A stretch of DNA of 64,000 bases from Azospirillum sp. (GCA_031546725.1 JAVBJZ010000007.1:788-64787), one strand, 5' to 3'. Counted from the stretch's first letter, positions 8,818 to 58,350 are shown. The notes: generated from the sequence alone by a model not told the origin. Numbers and translations: made by a program.

Positions 8818-8919
8818 CCAGCGCGGCGCTATCGCGCCCAAGGCCTCGTTTTCTTCTTGCAAGAACGAAGAGGAAAGACTCTTACTTGACGAGCAGTCCT
8901 TGACGTCAGGTCTCCGGCC

Positions 8920-44077: not shown

Positions 44078-44795
44078 CCCCGCCTATCCTATTTTAACCC
44101 GACCAGATCGACCGGACGGTATTTATCCAAGTATCCCTTCTTGCTTGAAGGGACTGTGTATTTTGCCGACAGTATCGGCGTCTGTTGACAAGACAGCTAC
44201 CACAATCGATCGTGCCTAAATATATCAACAAGCGCCATAGAGCCTTTGCCGTCGGACCATTACCCTTGGTGGTCACGAACGTTACACTAACCAGAACAAA
44301 AGTCATAGGTAGTTTGTGACTTAAAATTATCACATACAAAAGTATGCATATAGAATAATGGAAATATTTGGTAGAAATAATCCATATTTGGCGTCGATAA
44401 AAATCATTATTCATAATTTTTAGAAAATTAGACACGACCTCCACAACAACCACGAATGTCGAGGCATAGCATAACCATGCGCATTGGTCATACCTCGACG
44501 CGCTCTTTTGCTCAATATCAGCACGGATGGAGTATCACAAGGAGATCAACTATCGCCAATAATCGTCGCCTTGACGATCTCGCATGACAAGCTATCGTTT
44601 AATTTACAAGGAAACAGTCAAAATTATAAAATCAAAATATGCCGGTATGTTCCTTTGCAGATTTATATAAGGCTTTCCTAAAAAATTATGGAAGACGACG
44701 GCATTTCTGCTGATCCCGATGCGGAAGGTGACTCGACAAGAAGCGGAGCCCGGAAAGGGGCCGCCCGTGGATGCCCCCAAGCCAGAGCTGACTCC

Positions 44796-45542
44796 ATGCA
44801 CCCAACCCATGAGCACGCGCCCGAGAAAGCATCGCCATCGTCCCGCAACGCGGTGAGCCCCATGCATGTCTGTCTCATTCTCGACAACAACGGCCTTACG
44901 GACACCGTCGTCCAGGCACTGGAAAAGGCGGGTCGGCACCGACTCACCGTCTTCCATACCCTGAGCGAACTGACGCAGAGCACGCTGACGCCCGACGCCA
45001 TCCTGATCGGCCTGCAACAGTTCACGGCGTTGCGGGAAAACGAGCCTATGGTGTACCTGCGCCTGTCACGGCGCTCGCGCATCGTCGTCGTCCTTTCGTC
45101 CCGTGAACTGCTGGACGCCGCCCATATCCTCGCCTTCGCCGACGCCTGGGTGTTCGAAGACATCAACGTCGATCGCATCAACGAACTGCTGGACCTCGGT
45201 CTGGAAGGGCATTGCCTGATGCCCAAGCAGTTCCTGTCGCGTCTTGGCGTGGATGAGATCCGACTCACTCTGCTGCCTCGCCTCTCGGCGCCGGAGTTTC
45301 AGACTCTGCGCCTGCTTGGACAGGGACTCAACAACCGCACCATCGCCAACGGACTGGAGTTATCCGAGGCGGTGATCAAATCGATGGTGCGCAGCGTCCT
45401 GTCCAAGCTGCATTTTCGCAACCGCACCGAAGCCGGCGTCTTCGCCGCACGCCAGCAGGGTGCGCTGCAATCGGCTCGGGACGGCGCGGTTCCGCCGATC
45501 GCCCAACCCCACCATCTCCCTCAGATCAGCCGTTTGGCCTGA
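44796..45542 (+). CDS. LuxR family regulator with pseudo-receiver domain
   Basis: HTH GLNNRTIA..LSEAVIKSMV..LHFRNRTEA; REC lacks the phospho-Asp (ILIGLQ) and Lys. Start uncertain (44688-44862). Confidence 0.85.
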   Translation: MHPTHEHAPEKASPSSRNAVSPMHVCLILDNNGLTDTVVQALEKAGRHRLTVFHTLSELTQSTLTPDAILIGLQQFTALRENEPMVYLRLSRRSRIVVVLSSRELLDAAHILAFADAWVFEDINVDRINELLDLGLEGHCLMPKQFLSRLGVDEIRLTLLPRLSAPEFQTLRLLGQGLNNRTIANGLELSEAVIKSMVRSVLSKLHFRNRTEAGVFAARQQGALQSARDGAVPPIAQPHHLPQISRLA

Positions 45543-45602
45543 GGCAAGGTGCGGTCACCGCAGTTTCGCTGCGACGACCGCACCGTCATCATACAGGAAG
45601 GA

Positions 45603-46295
45603 TCACTGGTGAACCGCCGCCGCGTTCACCACGGCGCCGCCGGCGAACTCGCCACCGATACCGTTGTTGAGCGCCCAGATGGCCGCCTGCGTGCGGTTGG
45701 AGGCGTTGATCTTGCGCAACAGGCTCTTGAGATGAACCTTGACGGTCGCTTCGGTGATGTTCAGATGGTTGGCGATCATCTTGTTGGAATCGCCATTGAG
45801 CAGGCAGCGCAGAATTTGCACCTCGCGCTGCGACAAGCCCTTGCGTGAGACCGGCATATCGGCGCCATTGCCGTTGACGCGCCCGCTGATCAACAGCGCC
45901 GCCAGATGCGTCGGGAACACCTTTTCCCCCATCATCACCAAACGCAGCGACTGCGCCAGCGCGTCCGAGGACAGGTCCTTCATCAAATAACCATCCGCAC
46001 CGGCTTCAAGCGCGTTGGCCAAACGGCGGGTGCACAACTCGCTGGTGAGAATGACCATGCGGGCCTCTGGCAGCACGGCGCGCAGACGGCGCATGCCCTC
46101 CGCCTCCTCATCGCCGCCGCTCACCAGATCGAGCAGAATCAACTGGGGGTGCGTACCGCCTTCAACCGCAGACACCGCCTCGCGCAAATTGCCGGCTTCG
46201 GCAACGATCTGAAAAGGCGAATCATCCAGGAGGCGCTTCAGACCCTCCCGAAAGAGCTTGTTCGAGTCGATCAGAAAGGCTCGTACTGGTTCCAT
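45603..46295 (-). CDS. NarL/LuxR family response regulator
   Basis: LILLDL, VILTSE, YLMKD; LSQREVQIL..GDSNKMIA..ITEATVKVH. Confidence 0.92.
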   Translation of the reverse strand: MEPVRAFLIDSNKLFREGLKRLLDDSPFQIVAEAGNLREAVSAVEGGTHPQLILLDLVSGGDEEAEGMRRLRAVLPEARMVILTSELCTRRLANALEAGADGYLMKDLSSDALAQSLRLVMMGEKVFPTHLAALLISGRVNGNGADMPVSRKGLSQREVQILRCLLNGDSNKMIANHLNITEATVKVHLKSLLRKINASNRTQAAIWALNNGIGGEFAGGAVVNAAAVHQ

Positions 46296-46762
46296 TGTCA
46301 ACTCCCGCGATATCCGGATATTTTCGCAAGTCCCCATCGGTACTTTTGCCGGTATCGGCTGCGTTCAGCCTCCCAACAGCGCCACTCCATCGCATCTTTG
46401 TGCCGATATTTTGGATGAAGATACCCCCGTGTCGCAGTTATCGATACCGCTCCGTGGTATTAATGGATGAACGCATTGGGTATATGCGTAAAGCTATTTA
46501 CAAAAATGGAACAGCCAATTGGCTTTCAAATGATCAGCAATCTCTTTACGTGTCAATTTTTTTGGGTCATCTTAACACTATATTGACAATATAATATCAT
46601 TTCTTAAGAAATTAACAAATTCCAAACACCCCAGAGTTACAAATAACCGAGTTCATGGCTATAAAAAGCGCACCCCCCACAAATTTGTTTACACTTTTCT
46701 TCCAAAAATAAGGCGTTCTTACGCTCAAGCCGCTATGCCTTTAGTCATAGGATTGTCATGGC

Positions 46763-47029
46763 TTGCATCGACGCAAGAGCTGGCGGCTCCCCAAACGCCC
46801 GGCGTATTGTCCAGCCGTCCGCGCTGGCCGCCAGCGCCTGTGGAGCATCATTGCGTTGGTTTGGAAAATTACCGGCCTGTTGGCCCTGGCCTATTTGCTT
46901 TTGCTGGCGCGCAGCGCCTGGAAGCAAGGGGAAATCCGTCAGTATCTCTGGAGCTTAGCCATCATCGCCGGGATCCTCGCCTTCATCACCGCAGCGCTGC
47001 TGTTCACGGTGATGGTGAGCAACCAGTAA
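46763..47029 (+). CDS. small two-TM membrane protein
   Basis: Two hydrophobic segments (WKITGLLALAYLLLLA; LWSLAIIAGILAFITAALLFTVMV); true start probably downstream of 46763. Confidence 0.5.
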   Translation: MHRRKSWRLPKRPAYCPAVRAGRQRLWSIIALVWKITGLLALAYLLLLARSAWKQGEIRQYLWSLAIIAGILAFITAALLFTVMVSNQ

Positions 47030-47070
47030 ACACGCCGCCGGCGCTGGTGCAGCCAGCGCCGGCGGCCGGA

Positions 47071-48585
47071 TCAGATTTGCGCACGCTCGTGAGCAAGCCG
47101 CATCAGCACGTACTGGCGCATCATCTGGTTGCGAAAACGGTAGCGAAAACGCCCAGGCTCGGGCACCGCCGCCAAGACATTGCCGTGGTCTTCATCGGAT
47201 AACCGCTTGAGCATCCCATCAAGATCGGCAAAGACCGGCATGCCCTCGGGACCGGTCAGTTCTTTGGGATCGAAAACGCCGTATTCATCGGCCGGGCATA
47301 ACGCGGCGGCGTGCAGCACATCTTCCAACTCGACACGCCGGGCGCCGGCAAGCGCCCGATTGTAAGAGTCGACGATACCGCGTTCCGCCTCTTGCAGGCA
47401 GCGATTGGCCGCGTAAGCAAGATCGACGCGCTCAACGGTCGTCGCCTCCCGGCTGATAGCGCTGCGCGCCGCGTGCAGACCAAGCAATTGCGCATAATAG
47501 GGCAGCCCACGGACAAACTCCGCGATGCGGCGGACCACATCCGGCGCGAAGCCGATCCCCGCGTTCTCCCCTCCGGCTTGAATCAACCGCTCGATCTCTT
47601 TGTCAGTCATCAAGGGCAGGTGCACGGGCGCCAGTGACCGCTGAATCGAGGGGTGCTTGCCAAGCAACTGGTCAAGATTTTCGGCCACGCCGACGATCAG
47701 CAAGGTTACGGAGATTGAGCTGTCAGTCAGGTTTTTCAGCATTTCCGCGAGCTTGTTGCGAAAATCCTCGTCGGTGATGCGGTCGTATTCGTCGAGAATC
47801 AGCAACGCATGCGTGCCGTAGATACCGGCAAGCACCTCGTTCAGCTCGGTGACGCTGAAGCTACCCTCTGGCAACAGCTCGTTGAAGCTGGTGAAGGTGC
47901 GGCGCGCCGCGAAGGGGTTATCCATCCCCGAGCGGTAGTAGGTGGAGGGAATGCGCCGCAGTAAATGACGAAAACTGTCCTCGAAGCTCAACTCGGCGCT
48001 GCATGTCAGCTTGAGCGCCAAATACCCGGCTTGCGCCGCGATCTGCTCGATGGCGTTGGCCACGGACGTCTTGCCACGACCACGGTCACCGAACAGGATG
48101 ACATGCGCCCGCTCTTCCTCGATGGCCGAGATGATGCGCTTGAGCGCGGCAGTGCGGCCAACGAACAAGGCGTTCAGCGCCTGCTTTGGCCGGGTTGGCG
48201 TGAACGCCTCGCGCAGGCGACCGTTCATTTCCGGCGTCAACCCGGTCAACAGCGCCGGCGCCGTGCCGCGCGGTCCTCGCAGGCCGGTGTTTACCGGCAT
48301 GGTGAAGCGCGGCAGGTCGTGATCACCGCCGCCGGAACCAGCGTCGCCGAGTTGTCGGCCATGCTGGGTCGGCGTCATTCCCGCTCCGGGCACCGCACGC
48401 AACCGTGGCGGCCCACCCATGCTGACAGGGGACCGCAGGGGCCCCGAGGGTGATCCTGGAGCCCCCATCCCGGTGAAGCCTGCCGGATTCTCGCCCTCCT
48501 TGGCGCCCGGGGCGTTGAGGCCCGGACCGCCCGTAGCATCGTCGTCCACACCGGCGCTGCGCCGTTTCCGAAAAAAATTCCGCAT
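47071..48585 (-). CDS. AAA+ ATPase (ORC/Cdc6-like) with low-complexity N-terminal extension
   Basis: LREAFTP..P, FVGR, Walker A GDRGRGKT, Walker B LILDEYD, PYYAQLLG. Alternative start 48651. Confidence 0.87.
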   Translation of the reverse strand: MRNFFRKRRSAGVDDDATGGPGLNAPGAKEGENPAGFTGMGAPGSPSGPLRSPVSMGGPPRLRAVPGAGMTPTQHGRQLGDAGSGGGDHDLPRFTMPVNTGLRGPRGTAPALLTGLTPEMNGRLREAFTPTRPKQALNALFVGRTAALKRIISAIEEERAHVILFGDRGRGKTSVANAIEQIAAQAGYLALKLTCSAELSFEDSFRHLLRRIPSTYYRSGMDNPFAARRTFTSFNELLPEGSFSVTELNEVLAGIYGTHALLILDEYDRITDEDFRNKLAEMLKNLTDSSISVTLLIVGVAENLDQLLGKHPSIQRSLAPVHLPLMTDKEIERLIQAGGENAGIGFAPDVVRRIAEFVRGLPYYAQLLGLHAARSAISREATTVERVDLAYAANRCLQEAERGIVDSYNRALAGARRVELEDVLHAAALCPADEYGVFDPKELTGPEGMPVFADLDGMLKRLSDEDHGNVLAAVPEPGRFRYRFRNQMMRQYVLMRLAHERAQI

Positions 48586-48832
48586 TGCCCCTGCTTCCCG
48601 ACCATCGTCACCAAGCGCCGGCTCCACCTCGTGAGAGCCGGCTCCATTCAAATATTTAAGGATGCCGAGGCGTGGGAGGGGCTGCGAAATCGGATATTAT
48701 ACTGATGCGGATATGGGTCTGCGTACTCTTCAATTCCTGAATATAATTTTTGGCAGAGAAATGTAGTTCTTTCCTTCTATTGATCGTCAAGCCGGCGCTT
48801 GCCCCGCAGCCGAAAGCCCAAGCTTAGCCCCA

Positions 48833-48931: not shown

Positions 48932-49137
48932 GGCGCTGTTCCTCATATCGCGTGAGAGCGCCGAGGCTGACAGAACGAATTGCGAACTTCAAGCGTTAAG
49001 TTTCCTCTGTGTTCCCTATATCACCCCTTCTTGTGCCTGCATCCGCCATACCCCCTCGATGTGAGAGGAACGCCTGCGCTGCTGGCCGGACCTTCAACCA
49101 CGGGGTAACGAACTTTGCTGCAATGCGGCGGCCAATC

Positions 49138-49187
49138 TGGCATGCCATTTTGTCGTATCCTGCCATAATGGCATTGCGAAAATGCCG
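49138..49187. promoter_or_regulatory. candidate enhancer (UAS) for a sigma54 activator
   Basis: TGCCATTTTGTCG (49143), TGCCATAATGGCA (49161, palindrome), TGCGAAAATGCCG (49175); TGGCATGCCA palindrome at 49138. Confidence 0.5.
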
Positions 49188-49242: not shown

Positions 49243-49258
49243 TGGCCCGGAACTTGCT
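49243..49258 (+). promoter_or_regulatory. sigma54 (-24/-12) promoter
   Basis: TGGCCCGGAACTTGCT: GG-N10-GC spacing, 1 mismatch to TGGCAC-N5-TTGCW; a sigma54 activator is encoded in the same locus. Confidence 0.75.
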
Positions 49259-49294: not shown

Positions 49295-49546
49295 ATGACC
49301 GTGACGAGAAAGACAATATTGGTTTTGGCAGCCGTACTGGCTGTAGGGGTGATGGCTGATGGAGCTCGGGCTGCTGCGGATGCGCAGCCGGCGCAGGCCA
49401 TCAAAGCAACGACCGCGAACCCCACCAAGGTCGTGGACAATCCCGTCGCGACGCACACCCCCTGGTACACGCCAGCGGGCCGGCGCGGGATGCCCGCACC
49501 CTATGATCTGAAGAACCGGGTCACCGGGTTGCCCCCGCAAAAATAA
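49295..49546 (+). CDS. small secreted protein of unknown function
   Basis: Sec-type signal (RKTILVLAAVLAVGVMADGARA), AGGAG RBS at 49279-83, first gene after the sigma54 promoter. Confidence 0.7.
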   Translation: MTVTRKTILVLAAVLAVGVMADGARAAADAQPAQAIKATTANPTKVVDNPVATHTPWYTPAGRRGMPAPYDLKNRVTGLPPQK

Positions 49547-49667
49547 GTTCTGGCCTCTGATCCCTCGGGAAACACTGGCCATTTCTGCGGTTCCAACCGC
49601 CCATCAACAACAGATCTCGTGCTCCATCGAGACACCAATCCTACGACTGTCAAAAGAAAGATTTATC

Positions 49668-49967
<300 letters not shown>

Positions 49968-49979
49968 TTCTTCCTATTG

Positions 49980-50010
49980 GGGCGGCCTCAATCGAGGCCG
50001 CCCTTTGTTT
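49980..50010 (+). terminator. Rho-independent terminator between the Met-rich peptide and the cytochrome gene
   Basis: GGGCGGCCTC-AATC-GAGGCCGCCC followed by TTTGTTT. Confidence 0.8.
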
Positions 50011-50033
50011 CACTCCGTAACAACGGGTGTGCG

Positions 50034-50867
50034 ATGAACGTCGGGAGACTGCTCTCCGCCGCGATGGGGCTGTTGCTGTGTGGTGCAGCGATACCGGCCA
50101 CCGCCGCTGACTATCAGCGTGAAGTTTGGTCGCCTCTGCACTTGGCGCCAAACACCGCGAAAGCTACAAATGCTGAATGTCTTGCTTGCCACAGCGAGAT
50201 TCTACAAGACAAGATCCGCGAAGTCTCGCCAGCTGGCAAGAAAACATCGGATATAGGCCCGACGTGGTACCAGACTCTGGACACGTACAAGGGGACGCAG
50301 GAAACTTTCCATGCCCGGCATTTGACGACTGCTTATGCCAAGAAGGTTATGGACCTGAAGTGTTCGACCTGCCACACCGGCCATGACCCACGCGAAGAGT
50401 CCATGGCGCGCCCGCGGGTTGAAAAACAGGATGGCAAATGGACCGCCATTCCCGTTGAGACGACATTCCGCTTGCGCAAGCAGGTCAACCCCGAGACCAC
50501 ATGCCTCATGTGCCACGGGAAATTCCCGTTCGAGAACATGAGCCTGCCGGACGAGTGGTCGAAGATTCGGACCGACATGGAAAATGAGGACGCCAAGAAT
50601 GGCTGTCTGACCTGCCATGCCGAGCAAACCCGCACGAACCGTCACCAGGTCACTTATCTGAAGGCCGCGAACATCGAGAAGCTGGCAAAGGATGATTCCG
50701 ACGTTTGCTATGGCTGCCACGGCGGCCGTGCTTGGTATCGGCTGTCCTTCCCGTATCCGCGTCACGATTGGCCGGATATGCCCGCTGACGTTCCCGACTG
50801 GGCTACGGACCGGCCCAAGCAATCCGAAGCTCGATTCCGGCTGGATGCAGGGACCGCCAAGCACTGA
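50034..50867 (+). CDS. periplasmic pentaheme cytochrome c
   Basis: Signal peptide (ATA-AD); five CxxCH motifs: CLACH, CSTCH, CLMCH, CLTCH, CYGCH; no TM anchor. Confidence 0.9.
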   Translation: MNVGRLLSAAMGLLLCGAAIPATAADYQREVWSPLHLAPNTAKATNAECLACHSEILQDKIREVSPAGKKTSDIGPTWYQTLDTYKGTQETFHARHLTTAYAKKVMDLKCSTCHTGHDPREESMARPRVEKQDGKWTAIPVETTFRLRKQVNPETTCLMCHGKFPFENMSLPDEWSKIRTDMENEDAKNGCLTCHAEQTRTNRHQVTYLKAANIEKLAKDDSDVCYGCHGGRAWYRLSFPYPRHDWPDMPADVPDWATDRPKQSEARFRLDAGTAKH

Positions 50868-50885
50868 CGCCAGAGGAAACTCATT

Positions 50886-53429
50886 ATGATTAAAATCGAT
50901 CGGAAGGACCTTCTGGCGCGTGCTCTTGAATTGTCGCGTCGCGACTTGTTCAAGGTAAGCGCCGGAGCCGGCGCCGCCGCCGCCACGGGGTTGACGCCGT
51001 TGCGGCCCGCTCATGGTTTTGCTTACGAGCCCTACCCCAAGGACGATGAGCTCACCACGGTGGTGACGTCGTGCGCGCATAATTGCGGTTCGCGCCATAT
51101 GCTGGTGGCGCACAAGAAGGGGGATGTCATCGTCCGTTTGTCCACGGATGATGGCCGCGCTCAGGGTGACGCCTACGGGACCGACACGGCGGAAACGCCT
51201 CAGTTGCGGGCATGTCTGCGTGGACGGTCGTATCGTTCGCGTCTCTACAGCCCCGAGCGGTTGCTCTACCCCATGGTGCGGACGGGTGAGCGCGGCGAGG
51301 GTAAGTTCAAGCGGGTCTCCTGGGATCTGGCGCTGGACCTGATTGCCGAAAAGATGGTCCGGCTGAAGGAAAAATACGGCCCGACGGCGATTCTCGATCA
51401 ATCCTACGCCGGCGCGTCCTACGGCGTTCTGCACAAGTCGGATCAGATCGAAGGGCTGCTGGCCCGCTTCCTTGGTATCTTCGGCTGCCGCACCAGCTCC
51501 TGGTCGGTGCCCAGCTACCAGGGAACCACCTTCAGCTCCCGCATCACCTACGGCACCATCGAGGACGGCAACGAAGACGACGCCTTCGCCCACTCGAAGC
51601 TGATCATCATGTGGGGATGGAACCCGGCCTATACGTTCCACGGCGGCAACACCCACTGGTACATGCGCACAGCCAAACAGAATGGCTGCAAGTTCGTCGT
51701 CGTCGATCCCCAGTACACGGATGCGGCTGCGGCTTATGACGCCTGGTGGATCCCCATCAAGCCGAATACCGACGCGGCCATGATGGCCGGGATGGCGTAT
51801 TATATTTTTGTCAATGAACTGCAGGATCAGCAGTTCATCGCCCGCTTCTGCCAGGGCGTCGATCCCAGCACCATGCCGGGCTGGGCTCAGGGTAAGGAAA
51901 GCTTCAAGGAATACATCCTCGGCATGTCCGATGGTGTGCCCAAGACCCCGCAATGGGCCGCGGCCATTTGCGGTGTTCCGGCGGAAACCATCGCCAAGCT
52001 GGCGCATATGTACGCCGCGACCAAGCCGGCGGCTCTCAAGGCGTCGTGGGCTCCGGGCCGTAACGCCTATGGCGAGCAGTACAACCGTATGGCGGCCGCC
52101 CTGCAGGCGATCACCGGCAACATCGGTAAGCTCGGCGGTTGCGCTGAAGGCGTGGGCAAGGGCTGGCATTCCGAAGGCGTGGCCTACCCCTACGACGAGT
52201 ATTCGAACGTCTGGTATGCCGCGATCAAGTCTGACCGCTGGGCCCATTGCGTCCTCAACTACCCCAATGTCAAGCGTGAAGAGATTGGCTGTTGGGAGCG
52301 GAGCGATGCGCTGGACGGGAAGATTCCAGACATCCGGGGCATCTGGTGGCATGGTTCCAACTGGTTCAACCAGCTGACCAACATCAACAAAGAAATCGAA
52401 GCCATCAAGAAGCTGGATTTCGTGGTGTGCAATGACGCCACACTCACCAGCTCGGCGCTCTTTGCTGATTTCGTGCTGCCGGCCTGCACCCACTTTGAAC
52501 GGCACGATGTGGCGTTGCCCTGGTACAAGGGGCACTACTACATCCATCGTCCCAAAGTCATCGAGCCCTTGGGCGAAAGCCGCACCGACTTCCAGATCTT
52601 CACCGAACTGGCCTACCGTCTTGGCTATGGCGAGAAGTATAACCCACGCTCCAAGCGGGATTACTTCTATGACAACGAAGCCACGGACGAAGCCTATCTG
52701 AAGACGTGGTGGGAAGAAAAGGTGATGCACCATCAAGGCGTCACCGTGGGTTGGGAAGAGTTCAAGAGCAAGGGCGTCCACAAGTTCAAGTTCGACAAAC
52801 CGCATGTGGCTTTTCGTGCTCAGATCGAAGACGGCGTGCCGTTCCAGACCGCGTCTGGTAAGATTGAAATCCTATCGACCAGCCTGGCCAACATCACGGA
52901 TTGGACCAAGACCCGGTATGGTTATCCCATCCCGGCCATTCCCAAATGGATCGAACCGTGGGAATCCTTGAACCATCCCAAGGCCAAGGACTTCCCCTTC
53001 CATCTCGTCAGCCCGCACCCGCGTTGGCGGACCCACTCGATCTTCAACAACATTCCGTGGCTGCGGGAGACTTTTGAACAGGAAGTCACCATCAACGCAT
53101 CCGACGCCGCCAAGCTGGGGATCAACACCGGCGATACGGTGGAGTTGTGGAACGATCGCGGCAAAACCGTGGTCCCCGTCTATGTCACCGAGCGGTGCAT
53201 GCCCGGCGTTCTGGTCCTGCACGAAGGTGCGTGGCTGGACATGGTTGACGGCGTTGATCGAGCCGGCAACCCGGATGTCCTGACCAAGGATGATCCCAGT
53301 CCGGCAGGGGCTTTCGCCTACAACACCGTTCTGTGCAACATCCGCAAGACCGACCTGGACCACCATCCCGGCTGGGACAAGACCGTAACCGCCCGCGCCG
53401 CCAAATGGCGGCGCGACACCAGAGCTTGA
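50886..53429 (+). CDS. DmsA-clade molybdopterin oxidoreductase catalytic subunit (Tat-exported)
   Basis: Tat motif SRRDLFK; C63-x3-C67-x3-H71...RAC110LRGRS; Ser210 aligns with the E. coli DmsA Mo-ligand Ser; PIKPNTDAAM, ADFVLP, RTHS motifs. Confidence 0.93.
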   Translation: MIKIDRKDLLARALELSRRDLFKVSAGAGAAAATGLTPLRPAHGFAYEPYPKDDELTTVVTSCAHNCGSRHMLVAHKKGDVIVRLSTDDGRAQGDAYGTDTAETPQLRACLRGRSYRSRLYSPERLLYPMVRTGERGEGKFKRVSWDLALDLIAEKMVRLKEKYGPTAILDQSYAGASYGVLHKSDQIEGLLARFLGIFGCRTSSWSVPSYQGTTFSSRITYGTIEDGNEDDAFAHSKLIIMWGWNPAYTFHGGNTHWYMRTAKQNGCKFVVVDPQYTDAAAAYDAWWIPIKPNTDAAMMAGMAYYIFVNELQDQQFIARFCQGVDPSTMPGWAQGKESFKEYILGMSDGVPKTPQWAAAICGVPAETIAKLAHMYAATKPAALKASWAPGRNAYGEQYNRMAAALQAITGNIGKLGGCAEGVGKGWHSEGVAYPYDEYSNVWYAAIKSDRWAHCVLNYPNVKREEIGCWERSDALDGKIPDIRGIWWHGSNWFNQLTNINKEIEAIKKLDFVVCNDATLTSSALFADFVLPACTHFERHDVALPWYKGHYYIHRPKVIEPLGESRTDFQIFTELAYRLGYGEKYNPRSKRDYFYDNEATDEAYLKTWWEEKVMHHQGVTVGWEEFKSKGVHKFKFDKPHVAFRAQIEDGVPFQTASGKIEILSTSLANITDWTKTRYGYPIPAIPKWIEPWESLNHPKAKDFPFHLVSPHPRWRTHSIFNNIPWLRETFEQEVTINASDAAKLGINTGDTVELWNDRGKTVVPVYVTERCMPGVLVLHEGAWLDMVDGVDRAGNPDVLTKDDPSPAGAFAYNTVLCNIRKTDLDHHPGWDKTVTARAAKWRRDTRA

Positions 53430-53446
53430 TGTGAGGGGTGGCGAGA

Positions 53447-54121
53447 ATGACGACCCAGCCCAAATCGAAGATGGAACTTCGGCAAGCGGCTCAAAAAGCT
53501 GTCGAAGACCGTAAGACCTACACGCCCGTGGTGCCCAAAGAGCAGTTCGGTTTCATCCACAACAATGTGGAATGCATCGGCTGCCGGGCCTGCGAGATTG
53601 CGTGCAAGGATAAGAACGGCCTGCCACCCGGTCCGCGGTTCCGCCGCGTGCTGTATGTGGAAGGCGGGACTTTCCCTGAGGTCTATGCCTACAAGGTCAA
53701 TCTGTCTTGCAACCATTGCGCCGAACCGGCGTGCTTGCCGACCTGCCCCACCGGGGCGATCACCAAGCGGGCCGACAATGGCGTGGTGGACATCGACTCC
53801 ACCTTGTGTATCGGGTGTCGCCGGTGTGAGGCGGCCTGTCCTTATGGGGCCCCGCAGTGGGATCCTGAGGCGCAGGTCATTAAAAAGTGCAACATGTGCA
53901 TCGATGAACTCGATGCTGGCCGCAAACCCTATTGCGTTATGGCCTGCATGATGCGCGTGTTGGACATTGGTCCTATCGACCAGCTGCGGGAGGGAACATA
54001 CCCAACCAAGGCCATGGGGCCGAATGACAAGCCGGTTCGTCGTGTCAAGGACATGTCGAATCCGGAACTGACCAACGCCTCGATTGTGTTCATCGCCCAT
54101 CCGAAAGCCCGAGTAGACTAA
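53447..54121 (+). CDS. DmsB-like 4x[4Fe-4S] electron transfer subunit
   Basis: CIGCRACEIAC, CNHCAEPACLPTCP, CIGCRRCEAACP, CNMC...CVMAC. Confidence 0.94.
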   Translation: MTTQPKSKMELRQAAQKAVEDRKTYTPVVPKEQFGFIHNNVECIGCRACEIACKDKNGLPPGPRFRRVLYVEGGTFPEVYAYKVNLSCNHCAEPACLPTCPTGAITKRADNGVVDIDSTLCIGCRRCEAACPYGAPQWDPEAQVIKKCNMCIDELDAGRKPYCVMACMMRVLDIGPIDQLREGTYPTKAMGPNDKPVRRVKDMSNPELTNASIVFIAHPKARVD

Positions 54122-54837
54122 TGGTTGAAGCCGCCGAGTTAGAGGTTAGCCTGCGTCATGCCATCGCTGCCGATTTGGAAATGTTGGCGGCCATACATGA
54201 TCGCGAGCCAGACGCCGAGATGGTGGGGGTGTTGCAAAGCAGCAAATTCCCACTCTGCTTGACCCTTCCCCTCGATGATCCCGAGGCGGTGGTGGCCGGG
54301 CAAGTCATGGCGGCGATCCTCGACTCATTCGGTTCCGCATTGTCCGCCGAGGACGCCGACGAATTGGCGGCGTCCTACGCGGATGTTTATCTGCTCAACG
54401 GGTGCGGCTGTTCTCCCTATGCCTCACCGTGGCTGGATAAAGACGGGCTGGTGCGCCAGGAACCCATGCTTGACGTGCGGGCCTGGTTTGCCCGTCATCA
54501 CTTGCGCGTGCCCGACTCAGCGCTGCGTGCTGATGATCATTTGTCCATGCTTTTGCTTTTCCTGGCTCATCTGATCCGCTCGGGGGACGAGAAAGCGGGG
54601 GACGAGAAAACGGGAGAGGTGGAAGCCGCCGAATTCCTCAGCCGCTATGTGACGAATTGGCTTCCCTCTTTCGCCAAAGCGCTGGTCAGTCGGCATGGCC
54701 CTCCCTTCTATGCGGCTTTGGCGGTCCTGACCTCGGCCTATACCGAGGCGTTGGCCGCCCTGCTCCCTGAAGTGGAGGTTCCCGTGGCGGCTCCGCCGGA
54801 GCCGGTCTGCGCGCCTCGTGATCATGTGCATTTTTAA
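54121..54837 (+). CDS. TorD/DmsD family molybdoenzyme chaperone
   Basis: SPYASPWL, DDHLSMLLLFLAHL, FL..Y...WLPSF, FYAALA.LT. Confidence 0.9.
   Translation: MVEAAELEVSLRHAIAADLEMLAAIHDREPDAEMVGVLQSSKFPLCLTLPLDDPEAVVAGQVMAAILDSFGSALSAEDADELAASYADVYLLNGCGCSPYASPWLDKDGLVRQEPMLDVRAWFARHHLRVPDSALRADDHLSMLLLFLAHLIRSGDEKAGDEKTGEVEAAEFLSRYVTNWLPSFAKALVSRHGPPFYAALAVLTSAYTEALAALLPEVEVPVAAPPEPVCAPRDHVHF
54583..54612. repeat. 15-bp in-frame duplication in the chaperone gene (GDEKA/GDEKT)
   Basis: GGGGACGAGAAAGCG / GGGGACGAGAAAACG. Confidence 0.8.
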
Positions 54838-54920: not shown

Positions 54921-54969
54921 TTACAGCGGATTTCAGTTCAGCTTGAACCGAAATCCGCTGTAATTTTTT
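54921..54969 (+). terminator. long-stem Rho-independent terminator ending the oxidoreductase operon
   Basis: TTACAGCGGATTTC...GAAATCCGCTGTAA perfect 14-bp stem plus inner GTTCA/TGAAC, followed by TTTTTT. Confidence 0.85.
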
Positions 54970-55111
54970 GCCCGCCCTTCAAGATGAAGGCTTTTTTACT
55001 TAATGCACAGGATGCAAGCATATAAGGCTTGAATCCATCCGGCTCGATCGCGGTAGACTCGAAAACTCCGGCAGATCTTTCCCGGCTGATTTTTCAAGGT
55101 GGTGTCACGTT

Positions 55112-57007
55112 ATGGGATCGTGGGTAACCGCAAGGTTGGGGCGGGTTTTTGGCTTTGCTCTCGGGCTTGTGTTGTTGTCGGCGCTGCTGGTGTTTCTGGC
55201 GCTGTTCATCGGGGCCTATCAGTGGCAGATCGGGCATGAGCGCACCCGGCTGTCGGAACAGACGGCGCTGTTGTTGCAGGCGGCGCTGGAGAACGCCATG
55301 CTGAAGCGTGACCTGCCCGGTCTGCAAACGATCGTCGATCGCTTGGGACAGCAGGAAGGGGTTCGGCAGGTTCTCATCGTCAATCCCAGCGGAGAGGTGC
55401 GGTTCGCCTCCAACCGCCAGATGCTCAATCATCATTTCCTGACCGACAATGATTCCGGGTGCCGGGAATGCCATCAACAGAACACGGCGCGTGGCCGGAC
55501 ACTGTTTATGGTGGATAAAAACGGGCAAGAGGTTTTGCGCGGCGTCGATCCCGTCCGCAATCGGGAGCCGTGCCAACAATGCCACGGCCCGTTGAGCGAA
55601 CACCCGATCAACGGCGTTTTGATCATCGATTATGACGCCGCGGCCATTCGGACGACGGCGCTGCATGGCGCGCTGGCCTTTTTAGGGGCGGGGGCCATGG
55701 TGGTTCTGCTGGTGACCACGACGCTGTGGTGGCTGTTGCGCCGCCGGGTTCTTGACCGGCTGGAGGTGTTGGGGGCGGCCAACCGCGCCGTCGAAAGGGG
55801 CGTGCTGGACGTTCGGGTTCCCGAGGACGGCAGGGATGAAATCGCTGATCTCGCCCGCGGCTTCAATGAGATGACCGAGACGTTGCGCGCCCGCATGCGC
55901 GACATCCGTGACCGTGAAGCCTTCCTCCAGGCGATGATCGACGCCGTGCCCGATGGATTGCGTGTCATCGCCGCCAACAGCATGATCGTGACGGCGAACC
56001 GCACCTACCGTCGTCAATTGGGTCTGGATGACAGCCAGCCGTTGGCGGGCCAGACCTGCTACAACTCCAGCCACGGCGCTTCCGAGCCCTGTCCTCCCAC
56101 CCTGATCGCCTGCCCGCTGAATATTCTGGCTCGTGAAAAAGAGCCGCTGAAGACCGTGCATCAGCATATCCGCCGGGATGGCTCCACCGTCCATATGGAA
56201 GTCTACGCCGCCCCCATGATGCTGGAACAACAGGGGCGGGAGAGCTTTTATGTGGTCGAATCCATCCGTGATCTTAGCGAGGATATACGTTTTTCCCACG
56301 GGCAGAAGCTGTCTTCCGTCGGGCAGTTGGCGGCGGGGGTCGCCCATGAGATCCGCAACCCGCTCGCATCGATCCGCCTGGCTTTGGAAGGGCTGCTCCG
56401 CGATATCGAAGCCGGCGGGACCAGCGCTGAGGTTTTGACCTATTTACGGCTGGTGGATGGCCAGATCGACAAATGCATCGATGTCAGCAACCGCTTGCTA
56501 AAGCTTTCCGCCGTCGGGGGAGAGCAAAAGACCCTTGTGGATATTGGGCAAGCGGTTGAGGAAACCCTCTCCTTGGTTCACTGGCATGCCGAAACCTTGG
56601 GCATTGAGATTATCTTCACCCCCGATCCCAGTTCTCCCCGGATTTTGGCGGTGGATGGCGATGTGCGGATGGTGGCGTTGAATCTGATCCAGAATTCCTT
56701 TCATTCCATGCCCACGGGCGGTCGCCTGCTGGTCGATGTCCGTTCCGACGCCAAGCAGGTGGCGCTGATTGTCACGGACACCGGGGTGGGCATAAAACCC
56801 GAGTATCGCCGCCACATTTTTGAGCCATTCTTCAGTCATCGCGCCGACACCGAACAAGGAACGGGTTTGGGCCTGGCTATTTGCAAGAGCATCGTTGAAG
56901 GATTGTCCGGCTCCATTCACGTGGAAAGCCAACCGGGACAAGGCGCTTGCTTCACCGTCCTGTTTCCATCAGCGGAAGCAGCCATGGCTGCGGAGAATCG
57001 GGTATGA
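55112..57007 (+). CDS. sensor histidine kinase with periplasmic di-heme c motifs, HAMP and Cys-containing PAS
   Basis: TM1-periplasm (CRECH, CQQCH)-TM2-HAMP-PAS; H-box AHEIRNPL; N, G1 (DTGVGI), F and G2 (GTGLGL) boxes. Confidence 0.93.
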   Translation: MGSWVTARLGRVFGFALGLVLLSALLVFLALFIGAYQWQIGHERTRLSEQTALLLQAALENAMLKRDLPGLQTIVDRLGQQEGVRQVLIVNPSGEVRFASNRQMLNHHFLTDNDSGCRECHQQNTARGRTLFMVDKNGQEVLRGVDPVRNREPCQQCHGPLSEHPINGVLIIDYDAAAIRTTALHGALAFLGAGAMVVLLVTTTLWWLLRRRVLDRLEVLGAANRAVERGVLDVRVPEDGRDEIADLARGFNEMTETLRARMRDIRDREAFLQAMIDAVPDGLRVIAANSMIVTANRTYRRQLGLDDSQPLAGQTCYNSSHGASEPCPPTLIACPLNILAREKEPLKTVHQHIRRDGSTVHMEVYAAPMMLEQQGRESFYVVESIRDLSEDIRFSHGQKLSSVGQLAAGVAHEIRNPLASIRLALEGLLRDIEAGGTSAEVLTYLRLVDGQIDKCIDVSNRLLKLSAVGGEQKTLVDIGQAVEETLSLVHWHAETLGIEIIFTPDPSSPRILAVDGDVRMVALNLIQNSFHSMPTGGRLLVDVRSDAKQVALIVTDTGVGIKPEYRRHIFEPFFSHRADTEQGTGLGLAICKSIVEGLSGSIHVESQPGQGACFTVLFPSAEAAMAAENRV

Positions 57008-58350
57008 CACGGCGTATCCTGGTTATTGAAGATGACGCCATCCTCAATACTTTGCTGTGCAACCATCTGACCCGCGTCGGCTATGACGCCAGCGCGGCGC
57101 GGCGCTGGAGCGAAGCCGAGGCTTGGCTTGCCGCCGAATCCGCCGACCTCATCATCCTGGATGTCAATCTTCCCGACGCCGACGGCCTGGAAATGCTGCC
57201 GCATCTGGCGCCGCATCAACCGGTGATCATTCTCACCGCCTATGGATCGGTGCAGACCGCTGTCCGGGCGGTCAAAGCCGGCGCCGCCGAATATTTGGTC
57301 AAGCCCATCAACATCGATGAGCTGGAAGTCGTGGTCAGCCGCGCCATCGAAATGGCCACCATCAAACGGGAACACAGCTTCATCAAAGACCGGCTGGCGG
57401 TGCGCCCGGATAATTTGATGGTGGGAGCCGGGCGTGGGATCAGCGAGGTCCGCCGGTTGATCGAGGCGGTGGCGCCCTCGGACATGACGGTCTTGATCCA
57501 GGGCGAAAGCGGCGCTGGAAAAGAACTGGTGGCCCAGGCGATCCATGCCCGCTCCAAGCGGGACCGGCATACCTTTGTGGCGGTGGATTGCTGCACCTTG
57601 CAACGGACCTTGTTCGAGTCCGAACTGTTCGGTCACGAAAAAGGGGCGTTTACCGGGGCCGATCGGCAAAAGAAAGGGCTGATCGAGGGGGCCGAGGACG
57701 GGACCCTGTTTCTCGACGAAATCGGCGAAATCGAACCGGCCATCCAAGCCAAACTGTTGCGCGTCCTGGAAACCGGGCGCTACCGACGGCTGGGAGGAAC
57801 CAAGGATCTCAGCGCCAATGTCCGCATTGTCGCCGCGACCAACCGAGACTTAGCGGCGATGAGCCGGGATGGCCAGTTCCGACCGGATTTATTCTACCGC
57901 TTGAACGGCTTCGTCATCCATGTCCCCCCCCTGCGTGAGCGGCGCGAGGATATTTCTCAACTGGCGCAACATTTTGTCCGCAATCATGATTTTTCTCGTC
58001 GAATCAACAAGGAAATTTCTCAGTCAGCGCTTGATGTTCTCAAGAAATACAATTGGCCCGGCAACATCCGGGAATTAAGGAATTTTGTTGAGCGCGCCAT
58101 TATTTTATCAGGGGATGCAGAAATAATAGGTGAGGAATTTTTTTCTTTCCATGGACCTCAAAAATCATCTCAGCCAACAACTGAAGTTATGGATATTTTT
58201 GCCAATGATCCCCCATTGGAAGAGATAGAACGCTATTATATTGCTTATCTTCTGAAGAAATACGGTGGGCATCGGTCCTTGGTTGCGCAAAAACTGGGGA
58301 TCAGCGAGCGGAATATCTATCGGCTGATTCGCCGTTATGAGCTGGACTGA
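57004..58350 (+). CDS. sigma54-dependent (NtrC family) response regulator
   Basis: REC (EDD, ILDVNLP), [31 protein letters not shown], Fis HTH. ATGA-coupled to the kinase. Confidence 0.95.

What the first reader, a model, noticed from the sequence alone, without database searches (positions are those of the whole stretch)
50034..54837. DmsAB-type reductase with no DmsC anchor, replaced by a soluble pentaheme cytochrome c
Seen: the operon, bounded by terminators at 49980 and 54921, has no polytopic membrane subunit; its only extra redox partner is a five-CxxCH protein with a cleavable signal and no TM anchor. Known: canonical DmsABC uses DmsC, and TorA/DorA use membrane-anchored TorC/DorC without a DmsB. 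Inference: a hybrid, freely diffusible periplasmic complex fed by cytochrome c, or running oxidatively into the cytochrome pool.
Basis: partly seen in the sequence, partly recalled or inferred. Interest (0 to 1): 0.66.

Follow-up and report, generated by a model that had tools for sequence, protein, structure and literature searches.

The report
Poly-methionine protein with anchorless DmsAB-cytochrome reductase
The anchorless DmsAB-like molybdoenzyme with its five-heme cytochrome is real and found in at least 300 bacterial species, but it always travels with a secreted protein made of Gly-Met-X repeats, so it most likely reduces methionine sulfoxide on that protein as a periplasmic oxidant sink; this function is untested.

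Summary
The genes are as described: a Sec-type cytochrome with five CxxCH, a Tat-exported DmsA-like subunit, a DmsB-like subunit and a TorD-like chaperone. No DmsC/NrfD anchor lies in the operon, the 64-kb window or 84 of 85 related loci.

The operon boundary is wrong. The hairpin at 49979-50004 is intercistronic. Transcription starts at a sigma-54 promoter (49243-49258). It first crosses a small secreted protein gene and a secreted (Gly-Met-X)25 peptide gene (32% Met).

This gene order, followed by a haem-c sensor kinase and a sigma-54 activator, recurs in alpha-, beta- and gammaproteobacteria. The Met-rich gene was present in all 57 loci with at least 1.5 kb upstream, against 5 of 4547 control segments. 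Wastewater metatranscriptome contigs on one relative support co-transcription.

In 12 of 86 loci the cytochrome is fused to a membrane-anchored c2/cy-like haem domain, linking it to the cytochrome c pool.

Best reading (about 0.5): a methionine-sulfoxide reductase that recycles a sacrificial poly-Met protein. This matches MrpX-MsrP in logic but uses different parts. Direction and substrate are unproven, and a high-potential c2-type donor argues against sulfoxide reduction. I found no paper describing the module.

The parts
49137..49174 (+). Upstream activator-type palindromes (CTGGCATGCCA; CTGCCA-TAA-TGGCAT), about 70-105 nt before the sigma-54 promoter. Presumed binding sites of the neighbouring sigma-54 activator.
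   Evidence: Inverted repeat found. The consensus CTGNCA-N3-TGNCAG recurs 80-200 nt upstream of the promoter in alpha, beta and gamma relatives. CTGCCA occurs in 81% of upstream regions against 16% background. Binding is inferred.
49243..49258 (+). Sigma-54 (-24/-12) promoter TGGCCCGGAACTTGCT.
   Evidence: It is the only match in the 64-kb window with one mismatch to TGGCAC-N5-TTGCW. Equivalent sites with at least 10 of 11 matches lie upstream of the small gene in 28 of 56 loci, against 1% of all 460-nt windows. In L064, RNA contigs begin 24-74 nt after the last base of the promoter match (8828) and none extends upstream of it.
49295..49546 (+). Small secreted protein (83 aa). It is a divergent copy of a conserved family of about 95-125 aa with the motif QG.W.TPF..PGM.G.YDIR..H. 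Function unknown.
   Evidence: A homologue lies upstream of the Met-rich gene in 58 of 86 sequences. No Pfam or NCBIfam family matches.
49668..49967 (+). Secreted poly-methionine protein. It has a 21-aa signal peptide and a 78-aa mature part made of 25 Gly-Met-(Ser/Gly/His) triplets (39 G, 25 M, 10 S). The DNA is a tandem repeat of period 18/27 at 49734-49955.
   Evidence: A Met-rich + strand ORF lies directly upstream of the cytochrome gene in 57 of 57 loci with at least 1.5 kb upstream, against 5 of 4547 control segments.
49979..50004 (+). Strong intercistronic hairpin (11 bp, 9 G-C) with a weak U-tract. Read as a partial terminator or mRNA-stabilising element between the Met-rich gene and the enzyme genes, not as an operon boundary.
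   Evidence: A comparable hairpin follows the Met-rich stop codon in a subset of loci, such as L010, L023, L029, L033, L060, L062 and L074. In L064, RNA contig depth falls 2-3 fold at this junction. L064 itself shows no matching hairpin, so the depth drop is not evidence for the hairpin's action.
50034..50867 (+). Periplasmic pentahaem cytochrome c (277 aa). It has five CxxCH motifs and four invariant plus one nearly invariant non-motif His, which suggests bis-His haems.
   Evidence: The family has 1638 clusters, all unnamed. It reaches no curated family threshold. Neither a sequence profile nor a fold search finds a solved relative.
50886..53429 (+). Tat-exported Mo-bisMGD catalytic subunit (847 aa), a sister group of DmsA/YnfE. 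The Mo-ligand Ser is residue 210 (51513-51515). The FS0 motif is C63-x3-C67-x3-H71...C110, with His (51096-51098) where DmsA has its third Cys.
53438..54121 (+). DmsB-like four-cluster Fe-S subunit (227 aa) with no signal peptide. It is presumed to be exported attached to the catalytic subunit.
   Evidence: TIGR02951 scores 196 bits against a cut-off of 214. Four Cys groups are read from the translation.
54121..54837 (+). TorD/DmsD-family maturation chaperone (238 aa).
   Evidence: PF02613, 77.7 bits.
54921..54970 (+). Intrinsic terminator: a 14+5 bp hairpin followed by UUUUUU.
55112..57007 (+). Sensor histidine kinase. It has two TM segments flanking a periplasmic domain with two CxxCH motifs (residues 117 and 154), then HAMP, PAS, HisKA and HATPase domains.
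   Evidence: It is syntenic in nearly all loci. At least one periplasmic CxxCH is present in 58 of 63 homologues.
57004..58350 (+). Sigma-54-dependent response regulator (receiver, AAA+ sigma-54 interaction domain and Fis-type HTH). Its ATG overlaps the kinase stop codon.

Best explanation
The locus is a self-contained periplasmic module controlled by sigma-54. One transcript, started at 49243-49258, encodes six products in order:
1. a small secreted protein of unknown role;
2. an abundant secreted poly(Gly-Met-X) protein;
3. a pentahaem cytochrome c;
4. a DmsA-like Mo-bisMGD subunit;
5. a DmsB-like Fe-S subunit;
6. a TorD-like chaperone.

The neighbouring haem-c sensor kinase and sigma-54 activator probably switch it on.

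Proposed mechanism (inferred):
- The thioethers of the poly-Met protein are oxidised to methionine sulfoxide by periplasmic oxidants such as hypochlorite, chloramines, peroxide or peroxynitrite.
- The DmsAB-like enzyme reduces them back.
- Electrons reach the enzyme through the pentahaem cytochrome, which takes over the role of DmsC. It draws on the c-type cytochrome pool rather than directly on quinol.

The result would be a catalytic oxidant sink powered by the respiratory chain. It has the logic of MrpX with MsrP/YedY but is built from different parts.

Shown: gene content, gene order, universal linkage, the promoter, co-transcription in a relative, the Ser-type active site and the fusions to c2/cy-like domains.

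Inferred: the substrate, the direction of electron flow, the inducing signal and physical complex formation.
For: 1. Linkage. A + strand ORF with at least 8 Met in some 40-aa stretch lies directly upstream of the cytochrome gene in 57 of 57 loci with at least 1.5 kb upstream. It also does so in 15 of 16 loci with 500-1499 nt. Only 5 of 4547 control segments qualify, and in the window only this gene does. The relatives span alpha-, beta- and gammaproteobacteria.

2. One transcription unit.
- Sigma-54 promoters, UAS palindromes and an enriched TGATAA (IHF-like) word lie upstream of the small gene.
- In four wastewater metatranscriptomes, contigs on L064 start at 8852-8902, just after the promoter at 8813-8828.
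- They cover small, Met-rich, cyt, A, B and D, and stop near 15060.
- One contig bridges the Met-rich 3' end into cyt and A.

3. Enzyme type.
- The best family is DmsA/YnfE (TIGR02166, 622 bits).
- Identity to E. coli DmsA is 37%.
- The Mo-ligand Ser is invariant: window S210 aligns with E. coli S205 and with Rhodobacter DorA S147.
- DmsA-, DorA- and TorZ-type enzymes reduce free or protein-bound methionine sulfoxide (titles and abstracts of PMC7402097 and PMC5122715; PMC13488963).

4. Precedent. A secreted Met-rich peptide co-transcribed with a periplasmic Mo methionine-sulfoxide reductase scavenges hypochlorite in Azospira (PMC4436054).

5. Electron route.
- The module has no DmsC and no other polytopic protein.
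- Flanking genes are unrelated between loci: no Pfam family occurs in more than 2 of 92 flank proteins. The donor must therefore be a housekeeping component.
- 12 of 86 loci fuse a TM-anchored c2/cy-like haem domain to the pentahaem.
- At least five further loci (L004, L005, L084, L085, L089) add a monohaem cytochrome c gene.

6. GM-repeat peptides found by homology search fell in or beside this same module in 2 of the 3 contexts examined.
Against: - No experiment bears on this family.
- Thermodynamics. From my own knowledge, DMSO/DMS is about +160 mV, and methionine sulfoxide is presumably similar. Typical c2/cy cytochromes sit at +250 to +350 mV, so electron flow from the c pool to a sulfoxide would be uphill. 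The fusions fit better with a high-potential acceptor or with the oxidative direction.
- The apparently bis-His pentahaem and the four [4Fe-4S] clusters are probably low-potential, which makes a c2-type entry point awkward.
- MxxM spacing is also a classic Cu(I)/Ag(I) binding pattern.
- The poly-Met protein has almost no charged residues, whereas MrpX has 44%.
- The small conserved protein and the His in FS0 are unexplained.
- RNA evidence comes from assembled contigs of one relative, not from reads of this organism.
Confidence: 0.5

Rival explanations
1. High-potential oxyanion reductase with a protective sponge. The enzyme would reduce chlorate, bromate, iodate, selenate or a similar oxyanion with electrons from bc1 through the cytochrome c pool. 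The poly-Met protein would quench the reactive product (chlorite/HOCl, HOI, peroxide) and might be re-reduced by the same enzyme.
For: - The c2/cy-like fusions and extra monohaem cytochromes point to a cytochrome c-level donor, which suits acceptors above +300 mV.
- YnfE/YnfF (selenate) models score as well as DmsA models: 458 and 441 bits against 463.
- Shewanella DmsEFAB reduces iodate and bromate, according to references listed in PMC13488963.
- Several hosts are from lineages that I know to includechlorate or selenate reducers (Azonexus/Dechloromonas relatives, Sedimenticola).
Against: - No chlorite dismutase or peroxidase gene is linked in the three annotated contexts.
- None appears among the 25 Pfam families listed for 92 flank proteins, and no family recurred in more than two of them.
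- The module occurs in very diverse habitats, including groundwater, soil, wastewater and marine symbionts.
- A reductase that releases chlorite without Cld would be harmful.
- Nothing in the sequence was shown to favour anions.
Confidence: 0.15
2. Ordinary respiratory or assimilatory DMSO/S-oxide/N-oxide reductase that lost DmsC. The poly-Met protein would be an accessory, such as a decoy, a stabiliser or an unrelated passenger.
For: - DmsA/DmsB/DmsD-like parts are present.
- Public annotations read 'anaerobic dimethyl sulfoxide reductase subunit A'.
- A 'DMSO reductase-like' gene is among the most expressed genes in lucinid symbionts and was read as an alternative electron sink (PMC6872982; PMC12172469). 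Whether that gene is this cluster was not verified.
Against: - It does not explain the universal, co-transcribed and more highly expressed poly-Met gene.
- Control is by sigma-54 and a haem-c sensor, not by the FNR-type anaerobic control that I know for dmsABC.
- In the symbionts, expression coincides with aa3 and cbb3 oxidases.
- The same thermodynamic objection applies to a cytochrome c-level donor.
Confidence: 0.15
3. Oxidative direction. The enzyme would be a thioether dehydrogenase acting on dimethyl sulfide, methionine or another reduced compound. Electrons would pass from Mo through Fe-S and the pentahaem to c2/cy and on to a terminal oxidase.
For: - Flow towards a c2/cy-type domain is downhill for a couple near +160 mV.
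- The fusions resemble cytochrome cy, which I know to feed oxidases.
- Many hosts are aerobic methylotrophs or sulfur oxidisers, such as Hyphomicrobium, Thiodiazotropha and Sedimenticola.
- In lucinid symbionts a DMSO-reductase-like gene, not verified to be this cluster, is expressed together with the oxidases.
Against: - As far as I know, all characterised Ser-ligated DmsA/DorA/TorA-type enzymes are reductases, and DMS dehydrogenase belongs to the NarG-like type II branch.
- Oxidising one's own secreted protein has no evident benefit.
- No gene for further DMSO metabolism is linked.
Confidence: 0.12
4. The poly-Met protein is a Cu(I)/Ag(I)-binding periplasmic protein. It would either be functionally independent of the enzyme or protect its Fe-S and Mo centres from copper.
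For: The repeated M-x-x-M spacing in GMSGMGGM matches the Met motifs I know from Ctr1, CopA/PcoA and CusF. The composition is read.
Against: - No copper homeostasis gene is linked.
- His and Asp, common in bacterial periplasmic Cu-binding repeats, are absent.
- Strict linkage to an S-oxide-reductase-type enzyme is left unexplained.
Confidence: 0.05

Closest known systems
E. coli DmsABC (with DmsD)
   Same: Both have a Tat-exported Mo-bisMGD subunit with a Ser Mo ligand and an N-terminal Fe-S (FS0) motif. Both have a four-cluster Fe-S subunit without its own signal peptide and a TorD/DmsD-family chaperone. Identity to DmsA is 37%.
   Different: - There is no DmsC.
- The FS0 third Cys is replaced by His in every family member examined.
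- The subunits score below the curated cut-offs: 622 against 778 bits for A, and 196 against 214 bits for B.
- A pentahaem cytochrome, a poly-Met protein and a small protein are added.
- Control is by sigma-54 and a two-component system.
MrpX with YedY1Z1 (MsrPQ) of Azospira suillum (PMC4436054)
   Same: Same logic: a secreted Met-rich sacrificial peptide is co-transcribed with a periplasmic molybdoenzyme methionine-sulfoxide reductase, under a dedicated envelope stress regulator.
   Different: - The Mo enzyme belongs to a different superfamily (sulfite-oxidase fold, not DMSO reductase family).
- The electron donor there is the membrane haem-b protein MsrQ, not a pentahaem c.
- The regulator there is SigF/NrsF, not a kinase with a sigma-54 activator.
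- MrpX is 20% Met and 44% charged. Here the protein is (Gly-Met-X)n with 25-33% Met and almost no charge.
- The function here is inferred, not tested.
Shewanella DmsEFAB(GH)
   Same: A DmsAB-type enzyme without DmsC, supplied by a multihaem c-type cytochrome (my own knowledge). The DmsE family model gives a weak hit to the pentahaem (25 bits, E 1e-5).
   Different: DmsE is a decahaem working with an outer-membrane porin, DmsF, and an extracellular enzyme. No porin gene is present here. The score of 25 bits against a cut-off of 192 shows that the cytochrome is not a DmsE family member.
TorCA / DorCA / TorYZ (MtsZ)
   Same: Periplasmic S-/N-oxide reductases fed by a pentahaem cytochrome c. DorA and MtsZ reduce methionine sulfoxide (PMC7402097, PMC5122715).
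   Different: TorC and DorC are membrane-anchored NapC/NirT-type quinol dehydrogenases, and those enzymes have no Fe-S subunit. Here PF03264 scores below its threshold (18.6 against 24.1 bits), a DmsB-like subunit is present, and the catalytic subunit is closer to DmsA (622 bits) than to TorA (296 bits).
NrfB-NrfC(D) of the E. coli nitrite reductase system
   Same: It is a precedent for a soluble pentahaem cytochrome exchanging electrons with a DmsB-like four-cluster protein. The NrfB model gives the best, though weak, curated hit to the cytochrome (25.9 bits).
   Different: The score is far below the cut-off of 184. In Nrf the Fe-S protein sits on the NrfD membrane anchor and electrons flow outwards to NrfA.
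Cytochrome cy / c552 (membrane-anchored c2-type cytochromes)
   Same: The N-terminal module fused to the pentahaem in 12 of 86 loci has the same layout: a TM helix, an Ala/Pro-rich linker and a class-I CxxCH domain with c2-like sequence.
   Different: Here the module is followed by the pentahaem domain. The fusion is absent from the window's protein.

Membership tests
DmsABC-type DMSO reductase | Catalytic subunit reaches the curated DmsA/YnfE family score | tested here: not met
   TIGR02166 scores 622.1 bits against a cut-off of 777.7. It is the best-scoring family but falls below threshold.
DmsABC-type DMSO reductase | Serine ligand to Mo | tested here: met
   Window S210 aligns with E. coli DmsA S205 (S176 in the older numbering) and with DorA S147. 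It is invariant in the alignment.
DmsABC-type DMSO reductase | FS0 motif Cys-x3-Cys-x3-Cys...Cys | tested here: not met
   The window has C63-x3-C67-x3-H71...C110. His replaces E. coli C71 in the window and in all seven homologues read.
DmsABC-type DMSO reductase | DmsB four-cluster subunit | tested here: inconclusive
   TIGR02951 scores 196 bits against a cut-off of 214.1. Four Cys groups are present.
DmsABC-type DMSO reductase | DmsC (or NrfD-type) quinol-oxidising membrane anchor | tested here: not met
   No TM-rich ORF lies in the operon. tblastn with E. coli DmsC gives no hit in the window or in 84 of 85 loci. The single hit, in L039, is on the opposite strand beyond the regulators. No such Pfam family appears in the annotated contexts. 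The rest of the genome could not be examined.
TorCA/DorCA-type S-/N-oxide reductase | NapC/NirT-family membrane-anchored pentahaem cytochrome, and no Fe-S subunit | tested here: not met
   PF03264 scores 18.6 bits against 24.1. The window protein has a cleavable-looking signal peptide. A DmsB-like subunit is present.
MrpX-MsrPQ hypochlorite scavenging system | Secreted methionine-rich peptide co-transcribed with the reductase | tested here: met
   The mature peptide is 32% Met and has a signal peptide. Co-transcription was seen in relative L064. There is no sequence homology to MrpX, and none would be expected for such a low-complexity peptide.
MrpX-MsrPQ hypochlorite scavenging system | MsrP (sulfite-oxidase-family Mo enzyme) and MsrQ (haem-b membrane protein) | tested here: not met
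   The Mo enzyme belongs to the DMSO reductase family (PF00384/PF01568). No MsrQ-like membrane protein is in the module.
MrpX-MsrPQ hypochlorite scavenging system | Methionine sulfoxide reductase activity and induction by reactive chlorine species | not testable with these tools
   This needs an enzyme assay and expression experiments.
Shewanella DmsEFAB | DmsE-family decahaem cytochrome and DmsF outer-membrane porin | tested here: not met
   TIGR03508 scores 25.2 bits against a cut-off of 192.2, and there are five haem motifs, not ten. No additional large ORF lies in the operon.
Sigma-54-dependent operon with cognate two-component activator | -24/-12 promoter, upstream activator sites, and an adjacent activator with a sigma-54 interaction domain | tested here: met
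   Actual activation was not tested.

The most novel reading that the evidence does not exclude
A widespread proteobacterial module makes a secreted, uncharged poly(Gly-Met-X) 'thioether sponge'. It regenerates the sponge with a dedicated DmsAB-type methionine-sulfoxide reductase wired through a new pentahaem cytochrome to the cytochrome c pool. Cells would then in effect respire periplasmic oxidants (hypochlorite, chloramines, peroxide, peroxynitrite) catalytically. A haem-c sensor kinase would detect the oxidant. This could also explain the puzzling, very high expression of a 'DMSO reductase-like' enzyme in oxygen-respiring lucinid symbionts.
Probability: 0.4. Interest if true: 0.85.

Novelty: new variant of a known kind. 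Interest (0 to 1): 0.74.

Why it matters
- The catalytic subunit is 75-83% identical across three proteobacterial classes. The cytochrome family has more than 1600 sequence clusters. The module occurs in at least 300 species, including wastewater denitrifiers, methylotrophs and sulfur-oxidising animal symbionts.
- Every component beyond 'molybdopterin oxidoreductase' is annotated as hypothetical. I found no paper that describes the module.
- If the proposed function is right, it is a second, independently built sacrificial poly-methionine plus Mo-reductase antioxidant system. It would be powered from the cytochrome c level of the respiratory chain.
- It offers testable questions on three points: how a DmsB-type subunit docks a cytochrome instead of DmsC, what a His-ligated FS0 does, and what a haem-c kinase senses.
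- It also warns that automatic 'anaerobic DMSO reductase' calls in metagenomes and symbiont transcriptomes may be misread as anaerobic respiration.

Tried and rejected
- **Structure of the cytochrome.** An AlphaFold2 model built with a 42-sequence alignment reached only mean pLDDT 60. Foldseek against the PDB gave no match with E <= 0.001. A sequence profile against PDB chains gave nothing relevant. No structural relative can be named.
- **RNA evidence for the window organism.** Only one metatranscriptome holds part of the window. It has an exact 216-nt contig over 49569-49784 and collapsed repeat contigs, too little to judge read-through.
- **Homology search with the Met-rich peptide.** Composition correction left only 37 hits. 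It could not show whether GM-repeat proteins also accompany MsrP or MsrAB elsewhere. Of three contexts examined, two were this module and one was unrelated.
- **Conserved neighbours.** I looked for Cld, Msr, quinol dehydrogenases and peroxidases. None recurs in the flanks.
- **Hairpin after the Met-rich gene.** It is present only in a subset of loci under a strict perfect-stem scan. I do not claim it as a universal attenuator.
- **Literature.**
  - Full-text searches for the repeat sequence, for Met-rich combined with DmsA or pentahaem, and for the host genera found no description of the module.
  - Koch and Dahl 2018, on dmsAB in Hyphomicrobium denitrificans, is not held. Whether their dmsAB is this family is unknown.
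- **TorC-like 'hybrid' reading.** Rejected on family scores.
- **Curated families for the small protein and the Met-rich protein.** None was found. The collagen hit for the Azonexus protein only reflects its Gly-X-Y periodicity.


Full report
**1. What is at the coordinates**

Four + strand ORFs fill 50034-54837.

- **50034-50867 (277 aa).** It has five CxxCH motifs, at residues 49, 110, 157, 191 and 225. It has a single N-terminal hydrophobic segment followed by ATA|AD. It only brushes generic multihaem Pfam models and reaches no curated family. The NrfB model scores 25.9 bits against 184, the DmsE family 25.2 against 192, and NapC/NirT 18.6 against 24.1.
- **50886-53429 (847 aa).** It carries a twin-arginine signal plus the PF00384 and PF01568 domains. 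Its best family is DmsA/YnfE (TIGR02166, 622 bits), below the cut-off of 778. It scores ahead of the BisC family (422 bits) and TorA (296 bits).
- **53438-54121.** A DmsB-like four-cluster protein without a signal peptide (196 bits against 214).
- **54121-54837.** A TorD/DmsD-family chaperone.

None of the last three has a TM-like segment. E. coli DmsC finds nothing in the window by tblastn. The described objects are therefore real.

**2. The operon is larger than described**

Only 30 nt separate the hairpin at 49979-50004 from the cytochrome ATG. Two further genes lie upstream on the same strand.

- **49668-49967** encodes a signal peptide followed by 78 residues that are 25 Gly-Met-(Ser/Gly/His) triplets (39 G, 25 M, 10 S). 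The DNA is a tandem repeat of period 18/27.
- **49295-49546** encodes a small secreted protein.

The single best sigma-54 promoter match in the 64-kb window, TGGCCCGGAACTTGCT, lies at 49243-49258. It sits 37 nt before that small gene. Palindromes lie at 49137-49174. Directly downstream of the operon are a sensor kinase, whose periplasmic domain carries two CxxCH motifs, and a sigma-54-dependent response regulator.

**3. Conservation**

The catalytic subunit has relatives at 75-83% identity in Rhodospirillales, Hyphomicrobiales, Rhodocyclaceae/Azonexus, Castellaniella, Competibacter and Thiodiazotropha. All are named only 'molybdopterin-dependent oxidoreductase' or 'anaerobic DMSO reductase subunit A'.

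Contexts in Competibacter, Azonexus and Thiodiazotropha show the same order. It runs small protein, one or two Met-rich proteins (20-27% Met, 185-348 aa), pentahaem cytochrome, A, B, D, kinase and sigma-54 regulator.

A scan of one genome per species found 300 species with the cytochrome. Of these, 80 loci were fetched.

- The order cyt-A-B-D-(gap)-kinase-regulator holds in practically all loci long enough to show it.
- A Met-rich + strand ORF lies immediately upstream of the cytochrome gene in 57 of 57 loci with at least 1.5 kb of upstream DNA, and in 15 of 16 with 500-1499 nt.
- Only 5 of 4547 control segments in the same loci qualify. In the window, only this gene does among 881 segments.
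- Many contigs end inside the repeat, which explains why the linkage is easy to miss in assemblies.
- The small protein (consensus ...QG.W.TPF..PGM.G.YDIR..H) is found in 58 of 86 sequences. The window's copy is a shortened, divergent form.
- About half of the loci add a cytoplasmic polyferredoxin after the chaperone. The window does not.
- Flanking genes are unrelated between loci: no Pfam family occurs in more than 2 of 92 flank proteins. The module is therefore self-contained and carries no dedicated quinol dehydrogenase.

**4. Regulation and transcription**

- A sigma-54 promoter with at least 10 of 11 consensus positions lies 50-180 nt upstream of the small gene in 28 of 56 loci. With at least 9 of 11 positions the count is 39 of 56. 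The background is 1% and 4.6% of all 460-nt windows.
- Upstream of it, palindromes of the form CTGNCA-N3-TGNCAG and a TGATAA (IHF-like) word are enriched across classes.
- On locus L064 (a Rhodocyclales-type wastewater MAG), contigs of four metatranscriptomes begin at 8852-8902, just after the promoter at 8813-8828.
- These contigs cover the small gene, the Met-rich gene, cyt, A, B and D, and end near 15060. Almost nothing maps upstream, and little maps over the regulators.
- One contig bridges the Met-rich 3' end into cyt and A.
- Contig depth for the small and Met-rich part is 2-3 times that for the enzyme genes.
- Contig depth is a crude measure and this is a relative, not the window organism. 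The boundaries nevertheless agree in all four runs.
- A strong hairpin after the Met-rich stop codon recurs in a subset of loci. I read the window's hairpin as a partial terminator or stabiliser that sets the ratio of sponge to enzyme. That is an inference.

**5. The enzyme**

Aligned with E. coli DmsA (37% identity), the Mo-ligand serine is conserved. Window S210 matches E. coli S205, and also DorA S147 in the PDB alignment. The first, second and fourth FS0 cysteines are conserved as well. The third is histidine in the window and in all seven homologues read. A Ser ligand is the hallmark of the S-/N-oxide reductase branch. What the Cys-to-His change does to FS0 is unknown.

**6. The cytochrome and the electron route**

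- Four non-motif histidines are invariant and a fifth (H244) is nearly invariant, which suggests bis-His haems.
- The family has 1638 clusters, all unnamed.
- It has no solved relative detectable by sequence. A confident model could not be obtained.
- In 12 of 86 loci the ORF carries a sixth CxxCH. An N-terminal TM helix, an Ala/Pro-rich linker and a class-I domain with clear c2/cy-type sequence precede the pentahaem domain.
- Many other relatives have a TM helix and linker without the extra haem.
- At least five further loci encode a separate monohaem cytochrome c inside the operon.

These fusions argue that the pentahaem's partner is a c2/cy-type cytochrome, that is, the bc1/cytochrome c level of the chain. 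They also show that 'soluble' is a feature of this window's variant and not of the family.

**7. Function**

The universal, co-transcribed partner is a protein that is essentially a string of methyl thioethers. The enzyme belongs to the branch that reduces sulfoxides. DmsA-, DorA- and TorZ-type enzymes are reported to reduce free or protein-bound methionine sulfoxide.

One precedent exists for a secreted Met-rich peptide recycled by a periplasmic Mo reductase to scavenge hypochlorite: MrpX with YedY in Azospira. I therefore favour a methionine-sulfoxide cycle acting as a periplasmic oxidant sink.

The main objection is energetic. A c2-type donor is normally far more positive than a sulfoxide couple. 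On that ground three alternatives stay open:
- reduction of a high-potential oxyanion, with the sponge quenching its reactive product;
- plain S-oxide respiration;
- the oxidative direction into the cytochrome pool.

A copper-binding role for the MxxM repeats is possible but does not explain the linkage.

Reports that a 'DMSO reductase-like' gene is among the most expressed genes and proteins of lucinid symbionts alongside aa3 and cbb3 oxidases would fit a non-respiratory, protective role. I could not verify that it is this cluster.

**8. Comparison and novelty**

By parts, the module is closest to DmsABC, from which it differs in the anchor, the FS0 motif and the accessory genes. By logic, it is closest to MrpX-MsrPQ. 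It shares anchorlessness with Shewanella DmsEFAB and ArrAB, and a pentahaem donor with Tor/Dor, but belongs to none of these (see the membership table).

Full-text searches found no description of it. I rate it a new variant of a known kind. The architecture is firmly established here and the function is not.

Noticed in passing
window 55112-57007: The sensor kinase next to the operon has a periplasmic domain with two CxxCH haem-c motifs (residues 117 and 154) between two TM segments. At least one such motif is conserved in 58 of 63 homologous kinases. A haem-c sensor coupled to a sigma-54 activator is unusual, and its signal is unknown.
   Followed up: partly
L006, L009, L016, L020, L023, L037, L053 and others (contig ends 170-600 nt upstream of the cytochrome gene): Many public assemblies break inside or just after the GGCATG-rich repeat of the Met-rich gene. 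The poly-Met gene is therefore often truncated or missing from annotations.
   Followed up: yes
L001 12792-13934; L004 12511-13587; about 44 of 86 sequences: About half of the loci carry a cytoplasmic polyferredoxin of 340-380 aa after the chaperone gene. It has several CxxCxxCxxxC groups, a C-terminal CxxC...CxxC, and no signal peptide. It is absent from the window. It may be a NapF-like maturation factor.
   Followed up: partly
P0145 (171 aa); P0124, P0148; L004 4429-5205: GM-repeat stretches also occur fused to other domains. In one case the partner is a class-I cytochrome c. In others it is a C-terminal domain with the motif KIRKINR.Y..S.V, which also occurs as a separate gene upstream of the Thiodiazotropha cluster.
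   Followed up: no
L087 8001-8345: One GM-repeat secreted peptide lies outside this module, beside an unknown 134-aa gene and near metH/MTHFR genes. Not every such peptide is tied to the reductase.
   Followed up: no
window 49569-49784: An invertebrate-gut metatranscriptome (run X1) holds a contig identical to the 5' leader and start of the window's Met-rich gene (depth 15). It also holds a 212-nt contig with three mismatches over the end of the cytochrome gene (depth 4.4). This organism or a close relative is transcribing the locus there.
   Followed up: partly
window 49619-50151, both strands: The repeat creates long spurious ORFs in other frames and on the opposite strand, rich in His/Arg, Pro/Met or Cys/Arg/Pro. 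A gene caller could mistake them for genes.
   Followed up: no
window 43433-48651: Upstream of the module lie three LuxR-type regulators (two with receiver domains) and a 526-aa STAND/AAA NTPase with a long disordered N-terminus. None is conserved next to the module in other genomes.
   Followed up: no
L039 19289-20110 (- strand): This is the only weak DmsC-like hit in the 85 loci (27% identity, E 6e-5). It lies beyond the regulators on the opposite strand and probably belongs to a separate canonical dms operon.
   Followed up: no
L003 6535-7092: The Azonexus Met-rich protein, (GMSGMSGQEGMAGQK)n, scores as a collagen triple-helix repeat (PF01391, E 9e-28). All these proteins have strict Gly-X-Y periodicity with Met at X. 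GroEL's GGM tails are reported to form polyproline-II helices (PMC12571646, title only), so a PPII or collagen-like conformation is worth testing.
   Followed up: no
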